Shown in pieces: positions 1,428 to 25,756 of a stretch of 32,000 nt of DNA. The notes beneath the pieces were generated by a model. The model saw only the letters and a program-made list of their open reading frames with translations. It was not told the origin of the DNA and searched no databases. Numbering within the stretch: position 1 is the first letter of the stretch; every line of letters starts with the position of its first letter. Both the position numbers and the translations under genes were made by a program. The stretch is from Promethearchaeota archaeon (GTDB lineage: Archaea > Asgardarchaeota > Heimdallarchaeia > Hodarchaeales > Hodarchaeaceae), in the NCBI GenBank assembly GCA_048938105.1, contig JBHLMN010000014.1, positions 111,839 through 143,838 of the forward strand. Direction: 5' to 3'.

Positions 1428-4400
1428 TTATCCAAATAGGGGAACAGTTGGTTGAGAACCAAGAGCTATTCTTCGTCTGAATTGAGATTCTTGATTTTCA
1501 TACCATTTCATCATTTCTGGAGTGCAGGAGGAATGAACTCTCGACAGAGAGGACTCAAAATGCCGCCATTCAACAATATTGGTATCTAAACCTTCACGAA
1601 GAGCTATCATACCAGCTTCGCGGCATATAGCTTCAAGATCAGCTCCTACATAATATTCTGTTTCCTTTGCCAGCCGATCTAGATTTACATCTTCAGCTAG
1701 TGGCATATTCTTTGTATGGATGTCTAATATTAACTTGCGACTTTCTTCATCAGGAGGAGGGATGTAAACAACACGATCAAATCTTCCAGGTCTGAGAAGA
1801 GCGGGGTCAATCATATCTGGACGATTTGTAGCTGCTAGCACCACAACATCTCTTAAAGGTTCTATTCCAGCTAATTCAGTTAGAAGTTGGCTGATGACTC
1901 GTTCATTTACCCCAGAAGAGTCACCAGTTCCTCTTCGGGTAGCAACAGCGTCAATTTCATCGAAAAATACAAGGGCTGGCGAGGCAGTTCGTGCTTTACG
2001 AAAAACTTCTCGAACTGCTTTTTCACTTTCCCCAACCCATTTTGATAAGAGTTCGGGACCTTTTACACTGATAAAGTTCACTTGGCTTTCTGTTGCTAAG
2101 GCTTTAGCTAAAAGAGTTTTTCCAGTTCCAGGTGCTCCAAATAAAAGAACAGCTCGAGGAGGATTTATCCCTAATCGTTGGAAACTACTTTTTTGCCTTA
2201 GGGGCCATTCGACAATTTCAATGAGTTCCTGTTTGATGGAGTCCATCCCACCAATATTCTCCCATTTCACGTTAGGAACCTCAATAAATACCTCTCTAAT
2301 TGCAGAAGGATGGATCTCCTTTAGAGCATCCTCAAAATGGCGATCCTCCACCTTTAGATTATCAAGAACAGTCGGTGGGATGGTATCCTCGCTTAGATTG
2401 ATCTCAGGTAAGATTTCTCGCAGCTTTTTCATTGCAGCTTCACGTCCTAATGCTGCAAGATCCGCACCAACAAACCCATGTGTTATAACTGCAAGTTTTT
2501 CTGTATCCACATCTTCTATTCCTGGCATCCTTCTCGTGTGAATCTGAAGGATTTCTAAGCGTTCATTTTTGTCGGGAACCCCAATTTCAATTTCACGATC
2601 AAAACGTCCAGGTCGACGTAAAGCAGGATCGACTGCATTGGGCCGATTGGTCGCTCCAATAACAATTGTTTCTCCACGGCTTTCCAATCCATCCATCAGG
2701 GCTAAAATTTGTGCAACAACACGTCGTTCGACTTCACCAGTGACTTCCTCTCGTTTAGGAGCAATAGCGTCGATTTCATCAATAAATACTATACTTGGCG
2801 CGTTATCTTCAGCTTCTTTGAATATCTCGCGTAGTCTGGCTTCGCTATTATGCACTAATAATCCGTTTGCAATAAAATTATGGTGTTTTGGTACTTCAAA
2901 ATCATATACATGCGCTTGACTTCGTTCAATTCGTCGAATTGGTGTCCATATTACTTTCAAATCTAGTAAGTAGTTGATTTTGTCAAGTAAGATACTATCT
3001 AAGCCTTTTTCTTTGAATATAATATATGCTTTACGCAGTTGTTCAATAGTTAACCCTTTAACAGCAGGATTAATCCCATTTCGTAATAATTCTCTATGTC
3101 CAATATTCGCTTTTTTAGCATTCTTGTATATCCACTTAGCTATAGGGATTCTATCATAAGTAGGACGAGAATATTCTCTTTCGATTTTACTCATCATTTT
3201 TTCTCGTTTCCTCTGATGGATAAATGAAATATACTTCTTAAAATTCTCTATTGATGAATTATTTGATATAAACAATCTCCAAGTTCCATCTCTCTTTCTG
3301 TGAGAAATAGTCGAGAGAATATCAAACCTAAGAAGACAGAGCTTGATACCTTGGATTAGCTTTCTGCTTTTTGAAGTATATGTGATTTGAATACTCCTTT
3401 TTTCAGGATTCTTCTCCGAAATAAATTGTACTCCACCATCAGAATCAAATAATCCCCGCAAATAGGACTTTAATAATTTTATAGGTGTATTTATTACGTA
3501 ATGAGGAACAGTTACGGTTTCTGACTTTTTAGAAACAGGCAATCCTAAGTTATGTAGGAGATCACCAATAGGTCGTGAATTAAAGTAATACGAATAATCA
3601 GCTTTAGAATATTCGTGAGGAGTAATATTGAAAGTATTTTTTATCGCTTTAATATACTGATTTTTAACAGCTTCATCTTTTGATGTTAAAATTATTTGAG
3701 TAACAGTTCCGTATGAATGTGAATATCTAAGATGACCGTCTCCAGTAAGTAAGCCAAGTATATACATAAAATCTTCAGTCATATAAAGAGGGACTTTTCT
3801 ATTATGTTCCAAATATAAATCGTATTGATCATCAACGGGATATAATGAAAAAAGCTTTTTTACATATAAAGCAGGAATTTTCCCTTTAGAATACTTTAGG
3901 GTTTCAAATTTCCTCTTATTAATCCCTAATTCTTTTGCATACTCTCCACTTTTTCCGTATTCTGACATATTTGAAAATAGATTTTTAACAAGTTCGCCAC
4001 AAATGAGAGTATTGTCCTTCAGACTATTGAGAACTAGTGGTGTTTTCGTATCTATAATCCTTAACGTTCTAGGACTAGCAATTTGATCTCCAACCTTTAA
4101 TTCATCTGCGTAGATCCAATTTAATTCTCCATCATACAGAGTCAGAAACCTTGAAGAAGGTGTAACCTCAAGTTGTCCATGTGGAGTTGTTATCTTTAAT
4201 GTGATTTGGGTTCCTTTGTCAAATAATTCTTTCACAGGTAGAAGGTTTATCTCTCCGGTATCAAAATTCAATCCTGCAATCGAATGGACTTTCCCATTTT
4301 GGATTGTCTTTCCAATGGATTTCAATCCGTTTCCATTTGTAAAAACCAAAGAATCTTTAGCGACACATTCACCGTAGAACTTAGACATGATTTCAGGCCC

Positions 4401-5144
4401 TTGAATAGGAATGAAATGGGCCTCTGATTCATTAGCAACTGCTTTAGCAATGAGTGTTTTACCTGTTCCTGGGGGTCCGTGTAATAAAACTCCTTTAGGT
4501 GGATCAATTCCCAATTTTTTAAAGAGTTCAGGATGTTTCAAAGGTAATTCAACCATTTCACGAATTCGTTGAATTGCATCTGATAAACCACCAATATCCT
4601 CATAGCTTACCCCTGGCATTCCAGTTTCAATTTCAGAAACTGGTTTTTCTGAAACATTAAGTTTTGTTGTATCAGTGATTAATACAATATCTGTTGGAGT
4701 TGTTGAATTCACAACAAATGGTATAGATCTACCTAGAATAGGGATGAGAACCGTATCATTCTTGGAAACAGGATATCCTAACAATTTTCGTTTTACAAAG
4801 GCTTCAAAACCATAATCGAGGGAAATTTGGCGAGTTGGTGCAATATTGACCGTTTTGGCTACTTTTATCTGGGCTTTTTGGATCCGAACATTCTCTTCTA
4901 ACGATACCTTGGCATTCCTACGAATTATTCCATCCATTCGTACAATACCAGCTCCCTGATCTTCAATGTAAGCAGGCCAAGCGATAGCTCCTGTTTTTTG
5001 CCTTCCTTTAATCTCGACAACGTCACCAGTTGTGATACCAATTTCTCGCATATTGATATCATCCATACGGATTTTTCCCCGTCCCACATCACGTTGTCTC
5101 GCCTCGGCAACCTTTAATACAACTTCCTTTGCCAATATCCTCAA
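1428..5144 (-). CDS. cdc48: CDC48/VCP/p97-type double AAA+ ATPase, interrupted in frame by an intein (731 aa after splicing)
   Basis: It has a CDC48 N-domain ([25 protein letters not shown]). Walker A is GPPGTGKT in D1 and GAPGTGKT in D2. Walker B is IVFIDEID in D1 and LVFFDEID in D2. A second region of homology carries RPGRFDR in both halves. Confidence 0.95.
2847..4367 (-). mobile_element. Intein (507 aa) with LAGLIDADG homing-endonuclease domain inside CDC48 domain D1
   Basis: It starts with Cys (CVAKDSLV, codon 4365-4367) directly after the D1 motif SKFYGE. It ends ...NGLLVHN (Asn codon 2847-2849), followed by the +1 Ser of SEARLREIF. The uninterrupted D2 paralog motif [15 protein letters not shown] fixes the junction. 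Block B is TTPH. The two LAGLIDADG motifs are [10 protein letters not shown] and [11 protein letters not shown]. Blocks F/G are [18 protein letters not shown]. Confidence 0.9.
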
Positions 5145-21970: not shown

Positions 21971-21979
21971 ATATTTAAA
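21971..21979 (+). promoter_or_regulatory. TATA box candidate for the 5S rRNA precursor (may also serve divergent mptE)
   Basis: ATATTTAAA is preceded by purine-rich GGTGA. The expected transcription start is ~25 nt downstream, near 22000, which would give a ~60-nt leader. Confidence 0.4.
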
Positions 21980-22029
21980 GACTCTTGAATGCGCTCCTTT
22001 TGGTTTGTAGCTGCGACTATAACCATTTT

Positions 22030-22204
22030 GCGCCAATAACCTGCGAGACTCTGCCGGAAGTTAAGTTAGGTTCCGTTTCGATCTGTACTGTTGTGCGCGA
22101 GCCAACGGGAACATTGGAAAGCTGAGTATTGCTCGGTCAAAGGGCCTGAGTTACACCCGGTCTCATTCCGAACCCGGAAACAGAGTTTCCTTATCATTAG
22201 GCGC
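22030..22204 (+). other. processing stem with bulge-helix-bulge-like motif flanking the permuted 5S
   Basis: GCGCC (22030-34) pairs with GGCGC (22200-04), and AAT (22035-37) pairs with ATT (22196-98). GAGACTCTG (22045-53) pairs with CAGAGTTTC (22181-89), giving 9 bp with one G-T. The central 4-bp helix is CCGG (22054-57) with CCGG (22174-77). It is flanked by bulge AAA (22178-80) on one strand and AA(G) (22058-60) on the other. Confidence 0.65.
22060..22179 (+). rRNA. rrf: 5S rRNA, circularly permuted gene order (3' two-thirds encoded before the 5' third)
   Basis: 22060-22130 carries GTTAAG, then the helix II 3' strand TTAGG-TT-CC, then TTTCGAT, CTGTACT, GTTG-T-GC, the GCGA tetraloop, GC-CAAC, GGGAAC, ATTGGAAA and GCTGAG. 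This matches the archaeal 5S 3' domain (compare GTACTGGAGTGCGCGAGCCTCTGGGAA in haloarchaea). A TATTG loop follows. 22132-22179 carries CTCGGT (helix I 5' strand), CAAAG, GG-CCTGA (helix II 5' strand) and the conserved ACACCCGGTCTCATTCCGAACCCGGAA. The total is 120 nt. Confidence 0.8.
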
Positions 22205-22212
22205 TATTTCCA

Positions 22213-22219
22213 TTTTTTT
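22213..22219 (+). terminator. oligo-T terminator of the 5S precursor
   Basis: A T7 tract lies 9 nt after the end of the processing stem. Confidence 0.5.
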
Positions 22220-22471
22220 CTTGTATGTTTCCATCAGAATGTGATTTTATCATTATCAATTCTCTCCTTTCACACCTTGATTTCAGTACATGAAATCATT
22301 AATGTTTTATTGTTAGTAGAAAAGAAGTACTTTTGATCCTCAACACAACAATTGGTATTTCAATATTGCCTTCAGCTCTTGTAGCGATAACAGAAAGGTA
22401 TTTATTCCCTAAATCTTACGAAGTTGGCTATACATATTTTGTGTGGGTTTATACCTACATGGAGGTATTGA

Positions 22472-25682: not shown

Positions 25683-25756
25683 TGGGCCGGGACGGATTTG
25701 AACCATCGATTTGCTCCGTGTGAGGGAGCCGTCATACCGAGCTAGACCACCGGCCC
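25683..25756 (-). tRNA. tRNA-Val (anticodon CAC)
   Basis: The reverse complement reads GGGCCGG TG GTCT AGCTCGGTAT GAC G GCTCC CTCACAC GGAGC AAATC GATGG TTCAAAT CCGTC CCGGCCC A. The acceptor, anticodon and T stems pair fully, T33 and A37 are present, and the T-loop is TTCAAAT. CCA is not encoded. Confidence 0.9.

What the first reader, a model, noticed from the sequence alone, without database searches (positions are those of the whole stretch)
22030..22204. Circularly permuted 5S rRNA gene flanked by a BHB-like processing stem that would rebuild the canonical molecule
**Permuted order (seen in sequence).** All recognisable 5S elements are present on the + strand, but in rotated order.
- 22060-22130 is the 3' part: GTTAAG, the helix II 3' strand, helix IV, loop E GTACT/GGGAAC, and helix V capped by a GCGA tetraloop.
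- GCTGAG (22121-26) and CTCGGT (22132-37), which are the helix I strands, are joined by only TATTG. The natural 5' and 3' ends are therefore fused.
- 22138-22179 is the 5' part. It ends in the conserved ACACCCGGTCTCATTCCGAACCCGGAA.
- In colinear archaeal 5S genes, CCCGGAA is immediately followed by GTTAAG. Here those two strings sit at opposite ends of a block of exactly 120 nt.
- The split is 49 nt plus 71 nt. By my count it is 52 nt plus 71 nt in a haloarchaeal 5S recalled from memory.

**Flanking stem.** The flanks pair extensively (22045-53 with 22181-89, and 22030-37 with 22196-204). The repeated CCGGAA on both strands forms a two-fold symmetric 4-bp helix with a 3-nt bulge (AAA) and a 2-3-nt bulge (AA/G).

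**Established knowledge.**
- The archaeal splicing endonuclease EndA cuts BHB motifs between the 2nd and 3rd bulge nucleotides.
- RtcB ligates the products.
- This route circularises pre-16S and pre-23S rRNA.
- It also matures permuted tRNA genes and the permuted SRP RNA of Thermoproteus.

**Inference.** Cuts at 22059|22060 and 22179|22180 followed by ligation would give ...GAACCCGGAA-GTTAAG... exactly. The product would be a 120-nt 5S rRNA that is either covalently circular or re-opened in the TATTG loop. I am not aware of a described permuted nuclear or archaeal 5S rRNA gene matured this way.
Basis: partly seen in the sequence, partly recalled or inferred. Interest (0 to 1): 0.92.

Follow-up and report, generated by a model that had tools for sequence, protein, structure and literature searches.

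The report
Circularly permuted 5S rRNA gene
This Asgard archaeon, like its relatives across the phylum, encodes its 5S ribosomal RNA with the two halves in swapped order between a conserved processing stem that looks built for the tRNA-splicing enzymes to cut and rejoin, which would explain why 5S genes "could not be found" in Asgard genomes and predicts a circular 5S rRNA.

Summary
Window 22060-22179 is a complete 120-nt 5S rRNA in rotated order: the 3' part (71 nt), a capped helix I, then the 5' part (49 nt).

- **Order test.** Rfam's 5S model gives only two sub-threshold pieces in swapped order. A profile of 77 colinear archaeal 5S genes scores the rotated sequence as one 90-bit hit, against 43 + 38 bits for the native order.
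- **Distribution.** A pattern specific for the permuted order found 42 such genes among 185,579 species genomes. Nearly all are in MAGs titled as Asgard lineages (Heimdall, Hod, Hermod, Njord, Jord, Frey, Thor-labelled, unspecified Promethearchaeota). Twenty-five more turned up in metagenomes.
- **No colinear copy.** No colinear Asgard-type gene was seen among 94 colinear controls.
- **Selection.** All five 5S helices and the leader-trailer helix covary.
- **Processing motif.** The flanks form a relaxed bulge-helix-bulge. The predicted cuts at 22059|60 and 22179|80 rebuild ...CCCGGAA-GUUAAG....
- **Natural variants.** One lineage shifts both cuts by 1 nt. Another moved the breakpoint 17 nt. 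Both still rebuild a canonical 5S.

Cleavage by EndA, ligation by RtcB and a circular product are inferred, not shown. I found no prior description.

The parts
21971..21979 (+). TATA-like box (ATATTTAAA) of the 5S transcription unit. The predicted transcription start is about 22000-22006 (inferred).
   Evidence: A TATA-like motif is conserved at the same distance upstream of the leader in the syntenic Heimdall/Hod-group loci. Similar boxes occur in the Njord and Jord types. The start site itself is inferred from the usual archaeal TATA-to-start spacing.
21980..21997 (+). Conserved block GACTCTTGAATGCGCTCC between the TATA box and the leader. Its role is unknown; it may be a promoter-proximal element.
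   Evidence: The block is conserved (..CTCTTGAA..GC.C.) in L043, L017, L037, L053, L013, L044, L039, L051 and L052, whatever the sequence of helix H1.
22030..22034 (+). Outer processing-stem strand (GCGCC). It pairs with 22200-22204.
   Evidence: An outer leader-trailer stem exists in relatives with different sequences: AACCACAT/ATGTGGTT in the Loki type and AGGCG/CGCCT in L013. It is present in the minimum-energy fold of the precursor.
22045..22053 (+). Helix H1, leader strand (GAGACTCTG). It pairs with 22181-22189.
   Evidence: Nine bp. It covaries across 51 unique precursors, and 9 of 9 pairs show a change on both sides on alignment A1.
22054..22057 (+). Central 4-bp helix, leader strand (CCGG). 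It pairs with 22174-22177.
   Evidence: There are four standard pairs in 38 of 50 true unique precursors and 3 bp plus one mismatch in 12. One further row is a spurious pattern match in L112. The helix is compensated as CGTG/CACG in the Jord/Frey type and CTGG/CCGG in L041. The precursor constrained to this pairing folds at -62.7 kcal/mol, against an MFE of -66.1.
22058..22060 (+). Leader-side bulge AA|G. The predicted 5' cut is between 22059 and 22060.
   Evidence: The position is fixed relative to the central helix in all relatives. The discarded nt 2 varies (AT|G in L010, AC|G in L030), while the retained G is invariant.
22060..22130 (+). 3' part of the 5S rRNA (71 nt).
- GUUAAG
- helix II 3' strand, 22066-73
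- helix V, 22076-81 with 22114-19
- loop E region, 22082-87 with 22109-13
- helix IV, 22088-96 with 22101-08, capped by GCGA
- helix I 3' strand, 22121-26
   Evidence: RF00001 alignment to model positions ~52-113. HMM hit to positions 53-123. Helices V, IV and II covary.
22127..22131 (+). Cap (UAUUG) that joins the natural 3' and 5' ends of helix I.
   Evidence: Relatives have 3-7-nt caps at this point: GUU; UUCG in a C(UUCG)G context in the Loki type; GUUA or UUCG on an extended stem in the Njord type. Helix I is paired in 99.5% of cells, and 5 of 6 pairs show double changes.
22132..22179 (+). 5' part of the 5S rRNA.
- helix I 5' strand, 22132-37
- loop A
- helix II 5' strand, 22142-49
- helix III, 22157-62 with 22170-77
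- loop C, 22163-69
- ends in ...GAACCCGGAA
   Evidence: RF00001 hit 22155-22179 to model 27-51. HMM hit to positions 13-58.
22178..22180 (+). Trailer-side 3-nt bulge AA|A. The predicted 3' cut is between 22179 and 22180.
   Evidence: A 3-nt bulge lies between the central helix and H1 in all 50 true unique precursors. The retained AA is invariant (GA in the shifted Jord/Frey register). The discarded third nt is A, T or G.
22181..22189 (+). Helix H1, trailer strand (CAGAGUUUC).
22200..22204 (+). Outer processing-stem strand (GGCGC).
22213..22219 (+). Oligo-T run (T7), the likely archaeal terminator of the unit.
   Evidence: Runs of five or more T lie 20-60 nt downstream of the trailer in most relatives.

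Best explanation
The locus 21971-22219 is the functional 5S rRNA gene of an Asgard archaeon of the Heimdall/Hod group. The gene is circularly permuted, and this arrangement is probably the norm in much of the Asgard phylum.

**Proposed pathway**
1. A ~215-nt transcript runs from a conserved TATA promoter to an oligo-T run.
2. It carries, in order: a leader; the 3' 71 nt of 5S; a short cap joining the two strands of helix I; the 5' 49 nt of 5S; and a trailer.
3. Leader and trailer pair into a processing stem: an outer helix, an internal loop, and the 9-bp helix H1.
4. Next to H1, the leader's CCGG pairs with the 3' strand of 5S helix III. This makes a 4-bp central helix, with a 3-nt bulge on the trailer side and an AA(G) bulge or junction on the leader side. 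The result is a relaxed bulge-helix-bulge motif of the hBH / bulge-helix-loop kind.
5. The tRNA-splicing endonuclease EndA cuts two nucleotides 3' of the central helix on each strand, at 22059|60 and 22179|80. In Asgard archaea EndA is the broad-specificity (alpha-beta)2 type.
6. The ligase RtcB joins the 2',3'-cyclic phosphate of ...CCCGGAA to the 5'-OH of GUUAAG....
7. The universally conserved helix III / loop B sequence is restored. The product is a 120-nt 5S rRNA that is most likely covalently circular, with helix I closed by the cap.

**What is shown**
- the permuted order;
- conservation and covariation of the 5S fold, of H1 and of the central helix;
- the exactness of the rebuilt junction.

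**What is inferred**
- the enzymes;
- ligation;
- circularity;
- that this is the only 5S gene in the genome.

**My sub-probabilities**
- functional permuted 5S gene: ~0.97;
- EndA cuts at the predicted sites: ~0.8;
- the ends are ligated: ~0.7.
For: **Order**
- RF00001 gives two partial hits in swapped order.
- The rotated sequence gives one 90.4-bit hit to a profile of 77 colinear archaeal 5S genes. The native order gives 43.4 + 37.6 bits.
- The rotated sequence folds into the three-armed 5S shape.

**Conservation**
- The permuted-order pattern hit 52 places in 185,579 species genomes. Forty-two are this gene. By record title, 35 carry an Asgard-lineage name, four are 'uncultured archaeon', one is a kingdom-level 'Promethearchaeati archaeon', one is 'Thermoproteota' and one is a bacterial-labelled contaminant. 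The other 10 hits are chance matches in coding-like DNA.
- Model R1 matches all 42, and 38 of them over its full length.
- On its alignment, 95.7% of cells are paired and 31 of 38 pairs have double changes. Slid controls give 28-46%.
- The locus is syntenic with Hodarchaeota WORE3 (84% nt identity over 8 kb) and with other Heimdall-group genomes.
- The promoter and terminator are conserved.

**Processing motif**
- All 50 true unique precursors share the same geometry, and H1 covaries.
- The central helix is compensated as CGTG/CACG in the Jord/Frey type, with a concerted 1-nt shift of both cuts that keeps the junction canonical.
- The Njord type has leader CCGG opposite the 5S strand ACGG. The leader therefore follows pairing rather than duplication.
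- Sequence variation begins exactly at the predicted cuts.
- A Loki-type variant (L055 = L144) has its breakpoint 17 nt upstream, in loop C. It has its own H1, 4-nt helix and bulges, and it rebuilds a 121-nt canonical 5S.
- The BHB conformer is within 3.4 kcal/mol of the MFE. It is more stable than the conformer that keeps helix III.

**No colinear copy seen**
- A pattern that matches both arrangements returned 94 colinear 5S genes, all of non-Asgard sequence type. All 25 Loki- or Heimdall-type hits were permuted.

**Enzymes (literature)**
- Asgard archaea carry the (alpha-beta)2 EndA with the L1 loop, which is the relaxed-specificity type (PMC5829648).
- EndA and RtcB were found in all the archaeal genomes examined in one study, and circular 16S and 23S transcripts were seen in Asgard archaea (PMC12918454).
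- The permuted SRP RNA of Thermoproteus is cut at a BHB by EndA and is circular in vivo (PMC4731332).
Against: - No RNA data were available. Cleavage, ligation and circularity are all untested.
- The motif is not a strict BHB. There is no inner helix in the strict register (H2 = 0). Only a 3-bp GUU/AAC pairing is possible, and only if the leader bulge is 2 nt.
- In 12 of 50 precursors the fourth central pair is a mismatch.
- The central helix competes with 5S helix III. The unconstrained MFE pairs the leader CCGG with 22157-60 instead.
- Folding-energy z-scores are weak, at -1.8 and -1.3.
- Most central-helix pairs are invariant because they lie in conserved 5S sequence. Support for that helix therefore rests on a few lineages.
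- The rest of this genome could not be searched for a colinear 5S gene.
- The metagenome sample was cut at 120 rows.
- Only a minority of Asgard species in the collection were hit. That may reflect pattern stringency and missing short contigs, or genuinely different genes. The cultured Prometheoarchaeum and Lokiarchaeum did not appear by name.
- Some Asgard MAG descriptions report 'a 5S rRNA gene' (PMC9723677).
Confidence: 0.72

Rival explanations
1. Linear permuted 5S rRNA. The transcript is trimmed, by EndA or by other nucleases, but the ends are never ligated. The mature 5S works as a nicked, permuted molecule with helix I capped and with termini in the helix III / loop B region, as in brown-algal mitochondrial 5S.
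For: - Permuted 5S rRNAs that stay permuted in the final product exist in stramenopile mitochondria (PMC4267664).
- The native-order 120-mer folds into the same arms without ligation.
- Nothing here demonstrates ligation.
Against: - The flanks keep a geometry that fits EndA. The rebuilt junction is exact to the nucleotide even where both cuts shift by 1 nt or the breakpoint moves 17 nt. That precision matters most if the ends are to be joined.
- EndA products (2',3'-cyclic phosphate and 5'-OH) held together by the central helix are the standard RtcB substrate.
- Asgard archaea do circularise 16S and 23S rRNA, and the analogous SRP RNA is circular.
Confidence: 0.17
2. Circular intermediate that is re-opened. 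EndA and RtcB circularise the RNA, and a second nuclease then removes the UAUUG cap to give a conventional linear 5S with ends at helix I, as happens for permuted tRNAs in Cyanidioschyzon.
For: - Permuted tRNA genes are matured in this way (cited in PMC4267664 and PMC10085705).
- Pre-16S rRNA circles are re-linearised in model archaea.
Against: - The caps are short (3-7 nt).
- They are often thermodynamically special hairpin loops, such as C(UUCG)G in the Loki type and GUUA or UUCG on a lengthened stem in the Njord type.
- This looks like a structural cap under selection rather than a disposable linker.
- No conserved motif for a second cleavage is visible.
Confidence: 0.07
3. Non-functional relic or assembly artefact. 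The locus would be a rearranged pseudogene or a mis-collapsed tandem 5S repeat, with the working colinear gene lying elsewhere.
For: - The rest of the genome could not be searched.
- A truncated pseudo-copy does exist next to the intact gene in L041.
- A Logan contig of this organism breaks inside the gene.
Against: - Sixty-seven independent assemblies from many studies show the same order, flanked by unique leader, trailer, promoter and terminator.
- Compensatory changes in every helix across lineages show purifying selection.
- The locus is syntenic across genomes down to 65% nt identity.
- No colinear Asgard-type 5S was found among 119 genes sampled.
- Authors of complete Heimdallarchaeum genomes found no 5S gene with standard tools.
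Confidence: 0.02

Closest known systems
Permuted SRP RNA gene of Thermoproteus tenax / T. uzoniensis (Plagens et al. 2015, eLife, PMC4731332)
   Same: - It is a universally conserved structural RNA encoded as a circularly permuted gene.
- Standard gene finders had failed to find it.
- A leader and trailer fold into a BHB at the junction.
- The BHB is cut by a relaxed-specificity heterotetrameric tRNA-splicing endonuclease.
- The ends are joined into a functional circular RNA, which restores a conserved region.
   Different: - The RNA is different: 5S rRNA, a ribosome component.
- The taxonomic scale is far wider, covering many Asgard lineages rather than a few species of one genus.
- The breakpoint lies inside the helix III / loop B region and borrows one strand of a native 5S helix for the central BHB helix.
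- Processing and circularity are shown for the SRP RNA but only inferred here.
Circularly permuted tRNA genes (Cyanidioschyzon merolae and other algae; Soma et al. 2007)
   Same: - The 3' half is encoded upstream of the 5' half.
- A BHB-like or bulge-helix-loop motif forms between leader and trailer.
- Maturation passes through a circular RNA.
   Different: - These are eukaryotic nuclear genes.
- The circle is re-opened at the acceptor stem by RNase P and tRNase Z, giving a normal linear tRNA.
- In the 5S gene the junction of the natural ends is a tight hairpin cap that is probably retained.
Permuted mitochondrial 5S rRNA of brown algae and other stramenopiles (Valach et al. 2014, PMC4267664; Rfam mtPerm-5S)
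   Same: - It is a 5S rRNA in which helix I is replaced or closed by a hairpin and the termini lie elsewhere.
- It was missed by the standard 5S model.
   Different: - It is organellar.
- The termini lie at the junction of domains alpha and gamma.
- The RNA stays permuted and linear, with no BHB, no EndA and no ligation.
- It did not match the window in the Rfam scan.
Archaeal pre-16S/23S rRNA processing stems with BHB, circular pre-rRNAs, circular or permuted 23S (Pyrococcus furiosus, PMC7758197; PMC12918454)
   Same: - A leader-trailer stem carries a BHB.
- EndA cuts and RtcB circularises.
- Circular rRNA can be the form present in the ribosome.
- The pathway has been observed in Asgard archaea for 16S and 23S rRNA.
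   Different: - Those genes are colinear, and circularisation joins the natural ends.
- 5S rRNA is explicitly described as not using this route.
- Here the gene itself is permuted, and ligation is needed to restore an internal conserved sequence.

Membership tests
5S rRNA (Rfam RF00001) | Scores at or above the family gathering threshold (38 bits) with the covariance model | tested here: not met
   In native order the best hits are 20.8 and 19.2 bits. This is as expected for a permuted gene. The rotated sequence could not be given to cmscan with these tools.
5S rRNA (Rfam RF00001) | All conserved sequence blocks are present and contiguous once the sequence is rotated (loop A, helix III / loop C ACCCGGUCUCAUUCCGAACCCGGAAGUUAAG, loop E GUACUG...GGGAAC) | tested here: met
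   The rotated sequence gives a single 90.4-bit nhmmer hit over HMM positions 13-124 of a profile of 77 colinear archaeal 5S genes. The RF00001 alignments of the two pieces agree.
5S rRNA (Rfam RF00001) | Three-armed fold with helices I-V, supported by covariation | tested here: met
   The MFE fold is a three-way junction. On 40 distinct sequences, helices I, II, III, IV and V are paired in 99.5, 92.1, 96.7, 93.8 and 99.6% of cells, and 27 of 34 pairs show double changes. The alignment was fitted to the model, so it leans towards the structure. Slid controls give 28-46%.
5S rRNA (Rfam RF00001) | Free 5' and 3' ends at helix I | tested here: not met
   At gene level the helix I strands are joined by UAUUG, 22127-31. 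The state in the mature RNA is unknown.
Bulge-helix-bulge (BHB) substrate of archaeal EndA | Central helix of exactly 4 bp | tested here: met
   Window pairing is 22054-57 with 22174-77 (CCGG/CCGG). There are four standard pairs in 38 of 50 true unique precursors and 3 bp plus one mismatch in 12. The helix is compensated as CGTG/CACG in the Jord/Frey type.
Bulge-helix-bulge (BHB) substrate of archaeal EndA | A 3-nt bulge 3' of the central helix on each strand | tested here: inconclusive
   The trailer side has a clean 3-nt bulge in all 50 precursors. On the leader side, AA plus G opens into a junction rather than a closed bulge. This meets the looser definition of 'at least one 3-nt bulge' (PMC4731332).
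Bulge-helix-bulge (BHB) substrate of archaeal EndA | Flanking helices on both sides (h and h' of the strict hBHBh' motif) | tested here: not met
   The outer helix H1 is present and covaries, at 3-16 bp. The inner helix is absent in the strict register (H2 = 0). Only GUU/AAC can pair, and only if the leader bulge is 2 nt. The motif is therefore a relaxed (hBH / bulge-helix-loop) one.
Bulge-helix-bulge (BHB) substrate of archaeal EndA | Cleaved by EndA two nucleotides into each bulge, leaving a 2',3'-cyclic phosphate and a 5'-OH | not testable with these tools
   There is indirect support only. Sequence variation starts exactly at the predicted cuts, and both cuts shift in concert in one lineage. 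The cut position within the bulge comes from my own knowledge of EndA, not from a paper read here.
Permuted non-coding RNA gene matured by the tRNA-splicing machinery (as for Thermoproteus SRP RNA and permuted tRNAs) | The 3' part is encoded upstream of the 5' part in one transcription unit | tested here: met
   One conserved TATA box lies upstream and one oligo-T run downstream.
Permuted non-coding RNA gene matured by the tRNA-splicing machinery (as for Thermoproteus SRP RNA and permuted tRNAs) | Joining the processed ends restores the canonical sequence exactly | tested here: met
   The predicted junction is ...GAACCCGGAA^GUUAAG.... The same sequence is contiguous in 94 colinear archaeal 5S genes. 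The junction is canonical in all 50 precursors, with core lengths of 120-131 nt plus three expanded variants.
Permuted non-coding RNA gene matured by the tRNA-splicing machinery (as for Thermoproteus SRP RNA and permuted tRNAs) | The organism has EndA of suitable specificity, and RtcB | not tested
   Neither gene was looked for in this genome, and none of the 11 window ORFs scanned against Pfam is one. Literature: Asgard archaea have the (alpha-beta)2 EndA with the L1 loop (PMC5829648). EndA and RtcB were found in all the archaeal genomes examined in one study, which included Asgard archaea (PMC12918454).
Permuted non-coding RNA gene matured by the tRNA-splicing machinery (as for Thermoproteus SRP RNA and permuted tRNAs) | Junction-spanning or circular RNA detected in vivo | not testable with these tools
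   No transcriptome data were accessible.

The most novel reading that the evidence does not exclude
The ribosomes of Asgard archaea contain a covalently circular 5S rRNA. These include the Heimdall/Hod group, which is closest to eukaryotes.

- The RNA would be made from phylum-wide, anciently permuted genes by the tRNA-splicing endonuclease and the ligase RtcB.
- The permuted gene would be the only 5S gene in these genomes and ancestral to the group.
- The eukaryotic lineage would then have had to revert to a colinear 5S gene.
- The permutation point can migrate, as the second breakpoint found in loop C shows.
Probability: 0.55. Interest if true: 0.93.

Novelty: new variant of a known kind. 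Interest (0 to 1): 0.88.

Why it matters
- **Textbook exception.** 5S rRNA genes are regarded as trivially recognisable in archaea, bacteria and eukaryotic nuclei (PMC4267664). This would be the first permuted 5S gene outside organelles, and the first 5S rRNA that depends on the tRNA-splicing machinery.
- **A practical puzzle explained.** It accounts for why 5S genes 'could not be predicted' in circularized Heimdallarchaeum genomes (PMC8813620). It may also explain why Asgard MAGs can fail the MIMAG rRNA criterion.
- **Immediate fix.** A rotated covariance model, or model R1 built here, would find these genes.
- **Testable prediction.** It predicts a circular 5S rRNA inside the ribosome of the closest archaeal relatives of eukaryotes. 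This can be checked in existing transcriptomes and in cryo-EM maps of cultured Asgard archaea.
- **Evolutionary marker.** It adds a discrete, easily scored character (permuted or colinear, plus the breakpoint position) for Asgard phylogeny and for reconstructing the archaeal ancestor of eukaryotes.
- **Gene evolution.** Two breakpoints and a 1-nt register shift show how BHB-dependent genes can be remodelled without changing the product.

Tried and rejected
- **RNAalifold on the plain MAFFT alignment.** It recovered only H1, helix V and helix III, because MAFFT misaligns the helix I, II and IV regions between the Loki and Heimdall types. I replaced it with a model-based alignment.
- **Strict BHB with an inner helix.** I searched for it and did not find it (H2 = 0), so I call the motif relaxed.
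- **Model R1 as a discriminator.** It does not separate Loki-type permuted genes (42-47 bits) from colinear 5S genes of other archaea (22-49 bits, aligned with large deletions). The seed was Heimdall-type only. I classified arrangement by sequence context instead.
- **Folding-energy z-scores.** They are not significant on their own, so I did not use them as evidence.
- **Faulty anchor pattern.** My first generic script used the wrong anchor pattern. I discarded its numbers and redid the analysis. One row (L112, 'CGAA') is still a spurious upstream match. The true L112 leader reads ...AAAGCG-CCGG-AA|G.
- **Linking chromosome records to the Heimdallarchaeum paper.** I tried to tie CP070665, CP070695 and CP070760 to that paper and could not.
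- **Other checks.**
  - The weak CRISPR-DR39, DLEU2 and SOX2OT Rfam hits next to the gene are chance matches (E 4-10).
  - ORF 22091-22336, which overlaps the gene, is spurious.
  - I did not use the bacterial sigma-70 promoter scanner, because it does not apply to archaea.
- **Literature.** Ten full-text searches found no description of an archaeal or Asgard permuted or circular 5S. Subscription-only papers are not covered.
Full report
**1.

- GTTAAG begins at 22060.
- The helix I strands GCTGAG (22121-26) and CTCGGT (22132-37) are joined by TATTG.
- The conserved ACACCCGGTCTCATTCCGAACCCGGAA ends at 22179.
- The block 22060-22179 is 120 nt, split 71 + 49.

At its gathering score Rfam finds no 5S gene in the window, only a tRNA-Val at 25683-25756. 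With relaxed thresholds, RF00001 matches 22155-22179 to model positions 27-51 (20.8 bits). It also matches 22060-22129 to model positions ~52-113, inside a 19.2-bit hit. The two halves of the model are therefore present in swapped order.

I could not feed a rotated sequence to cmscan.
- The rotated window sequence gives one contiguous hit of 90.4 bits (HMM 13-124).
- The native order gives two hits, 43.4 bits (HMM 53-123) and 37.6 bits (HMM 13-58), in swapped order.

The rotated RNA folds into the three-armed 5S shape. Its energy z-score is weak, at -1.8.

**2. The arrangement is typical of many Asgard archaea**

A DNA pattern that can only match the permuted order was scanned over one genome for each of 185,579 species. 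The pattern was GTACTG..GGGAA, then 40-70 nt, then YCCGAACNCGGAA. It returned 52 places.
- Ten are chance matches in coding-like DNA of bacteria and one archaeon.
- Forty-two are the same kind of gene.

By record title, the 42 genes fall as follows:

| Label | Count |
|---|---|
| Hodarchaeota | 8 |
| Heimdallarchaeota | 6 |
| Hermodarchaeota | 1 |
| Njordarchaeota | 1 |
| Jordarchaeia | 1 |
| Freyarchaeota | 1 |
| Thorarchaeota | 1 |
| unspecified Promethearchaeota / -ia / -ati | 17 |
| 'uncultured archaeon' | 4 |
| 'Thermoproteota' (neighbouring genes resemble those of the Jordarchaeia loci) | 1 |
| bacterial-labelled contig carrying a Loki-type sequence (a contaminant) | 1 |

The window itself is syntenic with Hodarchaeota WORE3 (84% nt identity over 8 kb) and with 'Heimdallarchaeota bin76' (83%). 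Synteny is weaker but recognisable with a dozen other Heimdall-group genomes. The window therefore comes from a Heimdall/Hod-group Asgard archaeon, and the gene has sat between the same neighbours for a long time. Those neighbours are an MptE-like kinase and PTPS on one side, and a metallo-beta-lactamase and a MutS-like protein on the other.

**3. The gene is under selection as a 5S rRNA**

I built covariance model R1 from 13 Heimdall-type precursors. It includes the 5S helices in permuted order plus 4 bp of the leader-trailer helix.
- R1 matches all 42 genome loci and none of the chance hits. Thirty-eight match over the full model. The other four (L014, L015, L016, L050) are cut by a contig end.
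- On the model-guided alignment of 40 distinct sequences, 95.7% of base-pair cells are standard pairs.
- Thirty-one of 38 pairs show changes on both sides. No shuffle out of 500 reaches the observed values, and slid registers give 28-46%.
- Per helix, the paired fractions are 99.5% (I), 92.1% (II), 96.7% (III), 93.8% (IV) and 99.6% (V).

The alignment was fitted to the model, so these numbers lean towards the structure. Even so, the plain MAFFT alignment already shows strong covariation for H1 and helix V.

A TATA-like box (window 21971-79) and a downstream oligo-T run (22213-19) are conserved in relatives. This is an autonomous transcription unit, not a fragment.

**4. The flanks form a conserved, relaxed bulge-helix-bulge motif**

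Fifty-one unique precursors were drawn from genomes and metagenomes. One of them is a spurious pattern match in L112. The other 50 all share the same geometry.
- Leader: helix H1, then 4 nt, then AA|N.
- Trailer: 5S...4 nt, then NA|N, then helix H1.

H1 is 9 bp in the window (22045-53 with 22181-89).
- Its first three pairs are formed in 51/51, 50/51 and 49/51 sequences, with 3, 3 and 6 pair types.
- Over positions 1-5, 86% are paired. Slid registers give 27-40% and shuffled partners give 53% (maximum 62%).
- H1 sequences are entirely different between lineages. Examples are GAGACTCTG/CAGAGTTTC, AAGCG/CGCTT, TGGCGTCGTTG/CAGCGACGCCA, CCAGCACTCTGGG/CCTGGAGTGCTGG and CTGGGCACCGTGG/CCACGGTGCCCAG.
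- A second, outer helix is also kept with different sequences.

The 4-nt central helix uses the 3' strand of 5S helix III (22174-77) and a leader tetranucleotide (22054-57).
- It is CCGG/CCGG in most sequences.
- It is CTGG/CCGG in L041.
- It is CCGG or CTGG opposite ACGG in the Njord type and L047, giving 3 bp plus a G.A mismatch.
- It is CCGA/CCGG in one Heimdall subgroup, giving 3 bp plus an A.C mismatch.
- It is CGTG/CACG in the Jord/Frey type.

The Jord/Frey case is the most informative. The helix is shifted by one nucleotide on both strands. The predicted cuts move with it (AA|A and GA|A), and the joined product is still the canonical ...CACGGA^AGUCAA.... The leader tetranucleotide there is the complement of the 5S strand, not a copy of it. 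A leftover from a tandem duplication would not explain that.

A second natural test comes from where sequence variation starts.
- Leader bulge nucleotide 2, which would be discarded, is A, T or C (L010 reads CCGGAT|G and L030 reads CCGGAC|G).
- Trailer bulge nucleotide 3, also discarded, is A, T or G.
- The nucleotides that would be retained never vary.

By the strict definition (hBHBh') the motif fails on one count. There is no inner helix in register, so the leader-side bulge opens into a junction. [quoted passage not shown] Asgard archaea are reported to have the (alpha-beta)2 EndA with the L1 loop, which is the broad-specificity type (PMC5829648).

Energetically, the precursor constrained to the BHB conformer folds at -62.7 kcal/mol. 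The MFE is -66.1, and in it the leader CCGG pairs with the other helix III strand. A conformer that keeps helix III folds at -60.0. The motif is accessible but not the unique ground state.

**5. No colinear Asgard-type 5S was seen**

I scanned JGI metagenomes with CCGRAAGTTAAR-N8-CGTT-N7-GTACTG, a pattern that matches either arrangement. The scan stopped at 120 stretches.
- Ninety-four are ordinary colinear 5S genes. All are of GTTAAGCC or GTTAAGTCC sequence types unlike the Asgard ones. They serve as a positive control that colinear genes are found.
- All 25 sequences of Loki type (GTTAAAC) or Heimdall type (GTTAAGTYAGG) are permuted.

[quoted passage not shown] I could not search the rest of this genome, so 'sole 5S gene' remains an inference.

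**6. A second breakpoint**

Two metagenome contigs (L055 and L144) carry a Loki-type gene whose break lies in loop C, 17 nt upstream of the usual point.
- Leader: ...TTAGTG-ACGG-AA|A-CATCCCGAACCCGGAAGTTAAAC....
- 3' end: ...ACCCGG-TC|A-CACTGA....

This variant has its own 6-bp H1, its own 4-nt helix (now using the 5' strand of helix III) and its own bulges. Joining the predicted ends rebuilds a 121-nt canonical 5S. The outer stem is homologous to that of other Loki-type genes, so the breakpoint appears to have migrated. This is hard to explain unless the BHB-defined ends are actually joined.

**7. Mechanism and the final form**

*Shown:* the permuted order, selection on the fold, a conserved and covarying processing stem, and the exact canonical junction.

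*Established elsewhere:*
- EndA cuts BHB motifs and RtcB joins the products (PMC4731332).
- This route circularises pre-16S and pre-23S rRNA, including in Asgard archaea (PMC12918454).
- The permuted SRP RNA of Thermoproteus is cut by EndA and is circular and functional (PMC4731332).

*Inferred:* EndA cuts at 22059|60 and 22179|80, and RtcB ligates to give a 120-nt circle.

I favour a circle that stays closed. The helix I caps are short and often of the especially stable kind. Examples are C(UUCG)G in the Loki type, and GUUA or UUCG on a lengthened helix I in the Njord type. That looks like a retained structural element rather than a disposable linker.

The rivals are a nicked, linear permuted RNA (0.17), a circle re-opened at the cap (0.07), and a relic or artefact (0.02).

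**8. Comparison with what is known, and novelty**

- The closest analogue is the Thermoproteus permuted SRP RNA.
- Permuted tRNA genes use a circular intermediate that is re-opened.
- Brown-algal mitochondrial 5S rRNAs are permuted but stay linear and involve no BHB (PMC4267664).
- A 2023 survey of natural RNA permutations lists 5S only from organelles (PMC10085705).
- A 2026 paper states that 5S rRNAs, unlike 16S and 23S, are not processed through circularisation.
- Ten full-text searches found no report of an archaeal permuted or circular 5S. Subscription-only literature is not covered.

I therefore rate this a new variant of a known kind. The mechanism class is known. The RNA, the phylum-wide scale, the use of a native 5S helix strand in the BHB and the mobile breakpoint are new.

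**9. Caveats**

- No RNA-level evidence was available.
- The BHB is relaxed rather than strict.
- Support for the central helix rests on a few lineages.
- Only a minority of Asgard species in the collection matched the stringent exact-match pattern. The cultured Prometheoarchaeum and Lokiarchaeum did not appear by name.
- I can therefore say 'widespread in at least seven named lineages', not 'universal'.
- Taxonomic labels are those of the record titles.

Noticed in passing
L055:10400-10720 (- strand) and L144 (same sequence); JGI contig Ga0180432_10002584: A Loki-type permuted 5S gene with a different breakpoint, in loop C, 17 nt upstream of the usual one. It has its own leader-trailer helix (TTAGTG/CACTGA), a 4-nt helix (ACGG/CCGG) and bulges, and it rebuilds a 121-nt canonical 5S. 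This suggests that the permutation point can migrate.
   Followed up: partly
L122:198-362 (- strand); also L112:7777-7940 and L171: Permuted Loki-type 5S genes with insertions. L122 has about 30 nt inside the helix III / loop C region (...CATCCGAAAAACCAGCTAATTTCGAGATGGTTCGGGAACCCGGAA). L112 and L171 have about 30-45 nt in the helix IV/V arm, giving cores of 149-164 nt. I did not examine whether these are expansion segments or mini-introns.
   Followed up: no
L070:3656-3860 (- strand): A colinear 5S gene of an AT-rich, non-Asgard-type archaeon carries a ~30-nt insertion in loop C (cacccggtctcat[attatgtcggtgcgagccgcgtaagagaag]tccgaacCCGGAAG). It may be an intron, and it lies close to the L055 breakpoint.
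   Followed up: no
L041:3196-3275: A truncated pseudo-copy lies 350 nt upstream of the intact permuted gene (3560-3696). It holds the leader plus the first ~60 nt of the 3' part and then breaks off after GGGAG. Its leader resembles the window's leader more than that of its intact neighbour.
   Followed up: partly
L016:1-129 and L050:3042-3174 (both MAG YT1_021); L009, L014 and L015 likewise at contig ends; L001 starts at window 22157: One Hodarchaeota MAG has two permuted 5S copies, each at a contig end. Several other assemblies also break inside the gene, including the Logan contig of the window organism. This may contribute to the gene being missed in MAGs.
   Followed up: partly
window 21980-21997: The block GACTCTTGAATGCGCTCC, between the TATA-like box and the leader, is conserved across Heimdall-group loci whatever the H1 sequence. 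Its function is unknown.
   Followed up: partly
L064, L065, L080, L094, L095, L133, L145, L147, L153, L164, L167, L169 (metagenome loci): Many colinear archaeal 5S genes of one GC-rich sequence type carry an insertion of about 100 nt or more right after the loop E GGGAA (e.g. GGGAAACCTGCCCTCCTTTGAGGAGGGCTTGGGCCGGCGACC...). This looks like a large 5S expansion segment.
   Followed up: no
window 1428-5144 (- strand): The CDC48/VCP-type AAA ATPase gene is interrupted by an intein with a LAGLIDADG homing-endonuclease domain. The Pfam matches are Intein_splicing at residues 288-766 and LAGLIDADG_3 at 560-639.
   Followed up: yes
window 22091-22336 (+): A mechanical 81-aa ORF overlaps the 5S gene and its trailer. 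It is almost certainly spurious but could be called as a hypothetical protein in annotations and so mask the RNA gene.
   Followed up: no
L026 (DATKTW010000142.1, titled Candidatus Nanopelagicaceae bacterium): A contig in a bacterial MAG carries a Loki-type permuted 5S gene almost identical to those of several Promethearchaeota MAGs. It is probably a mis-binned archaeal contig.
   Followed up: no
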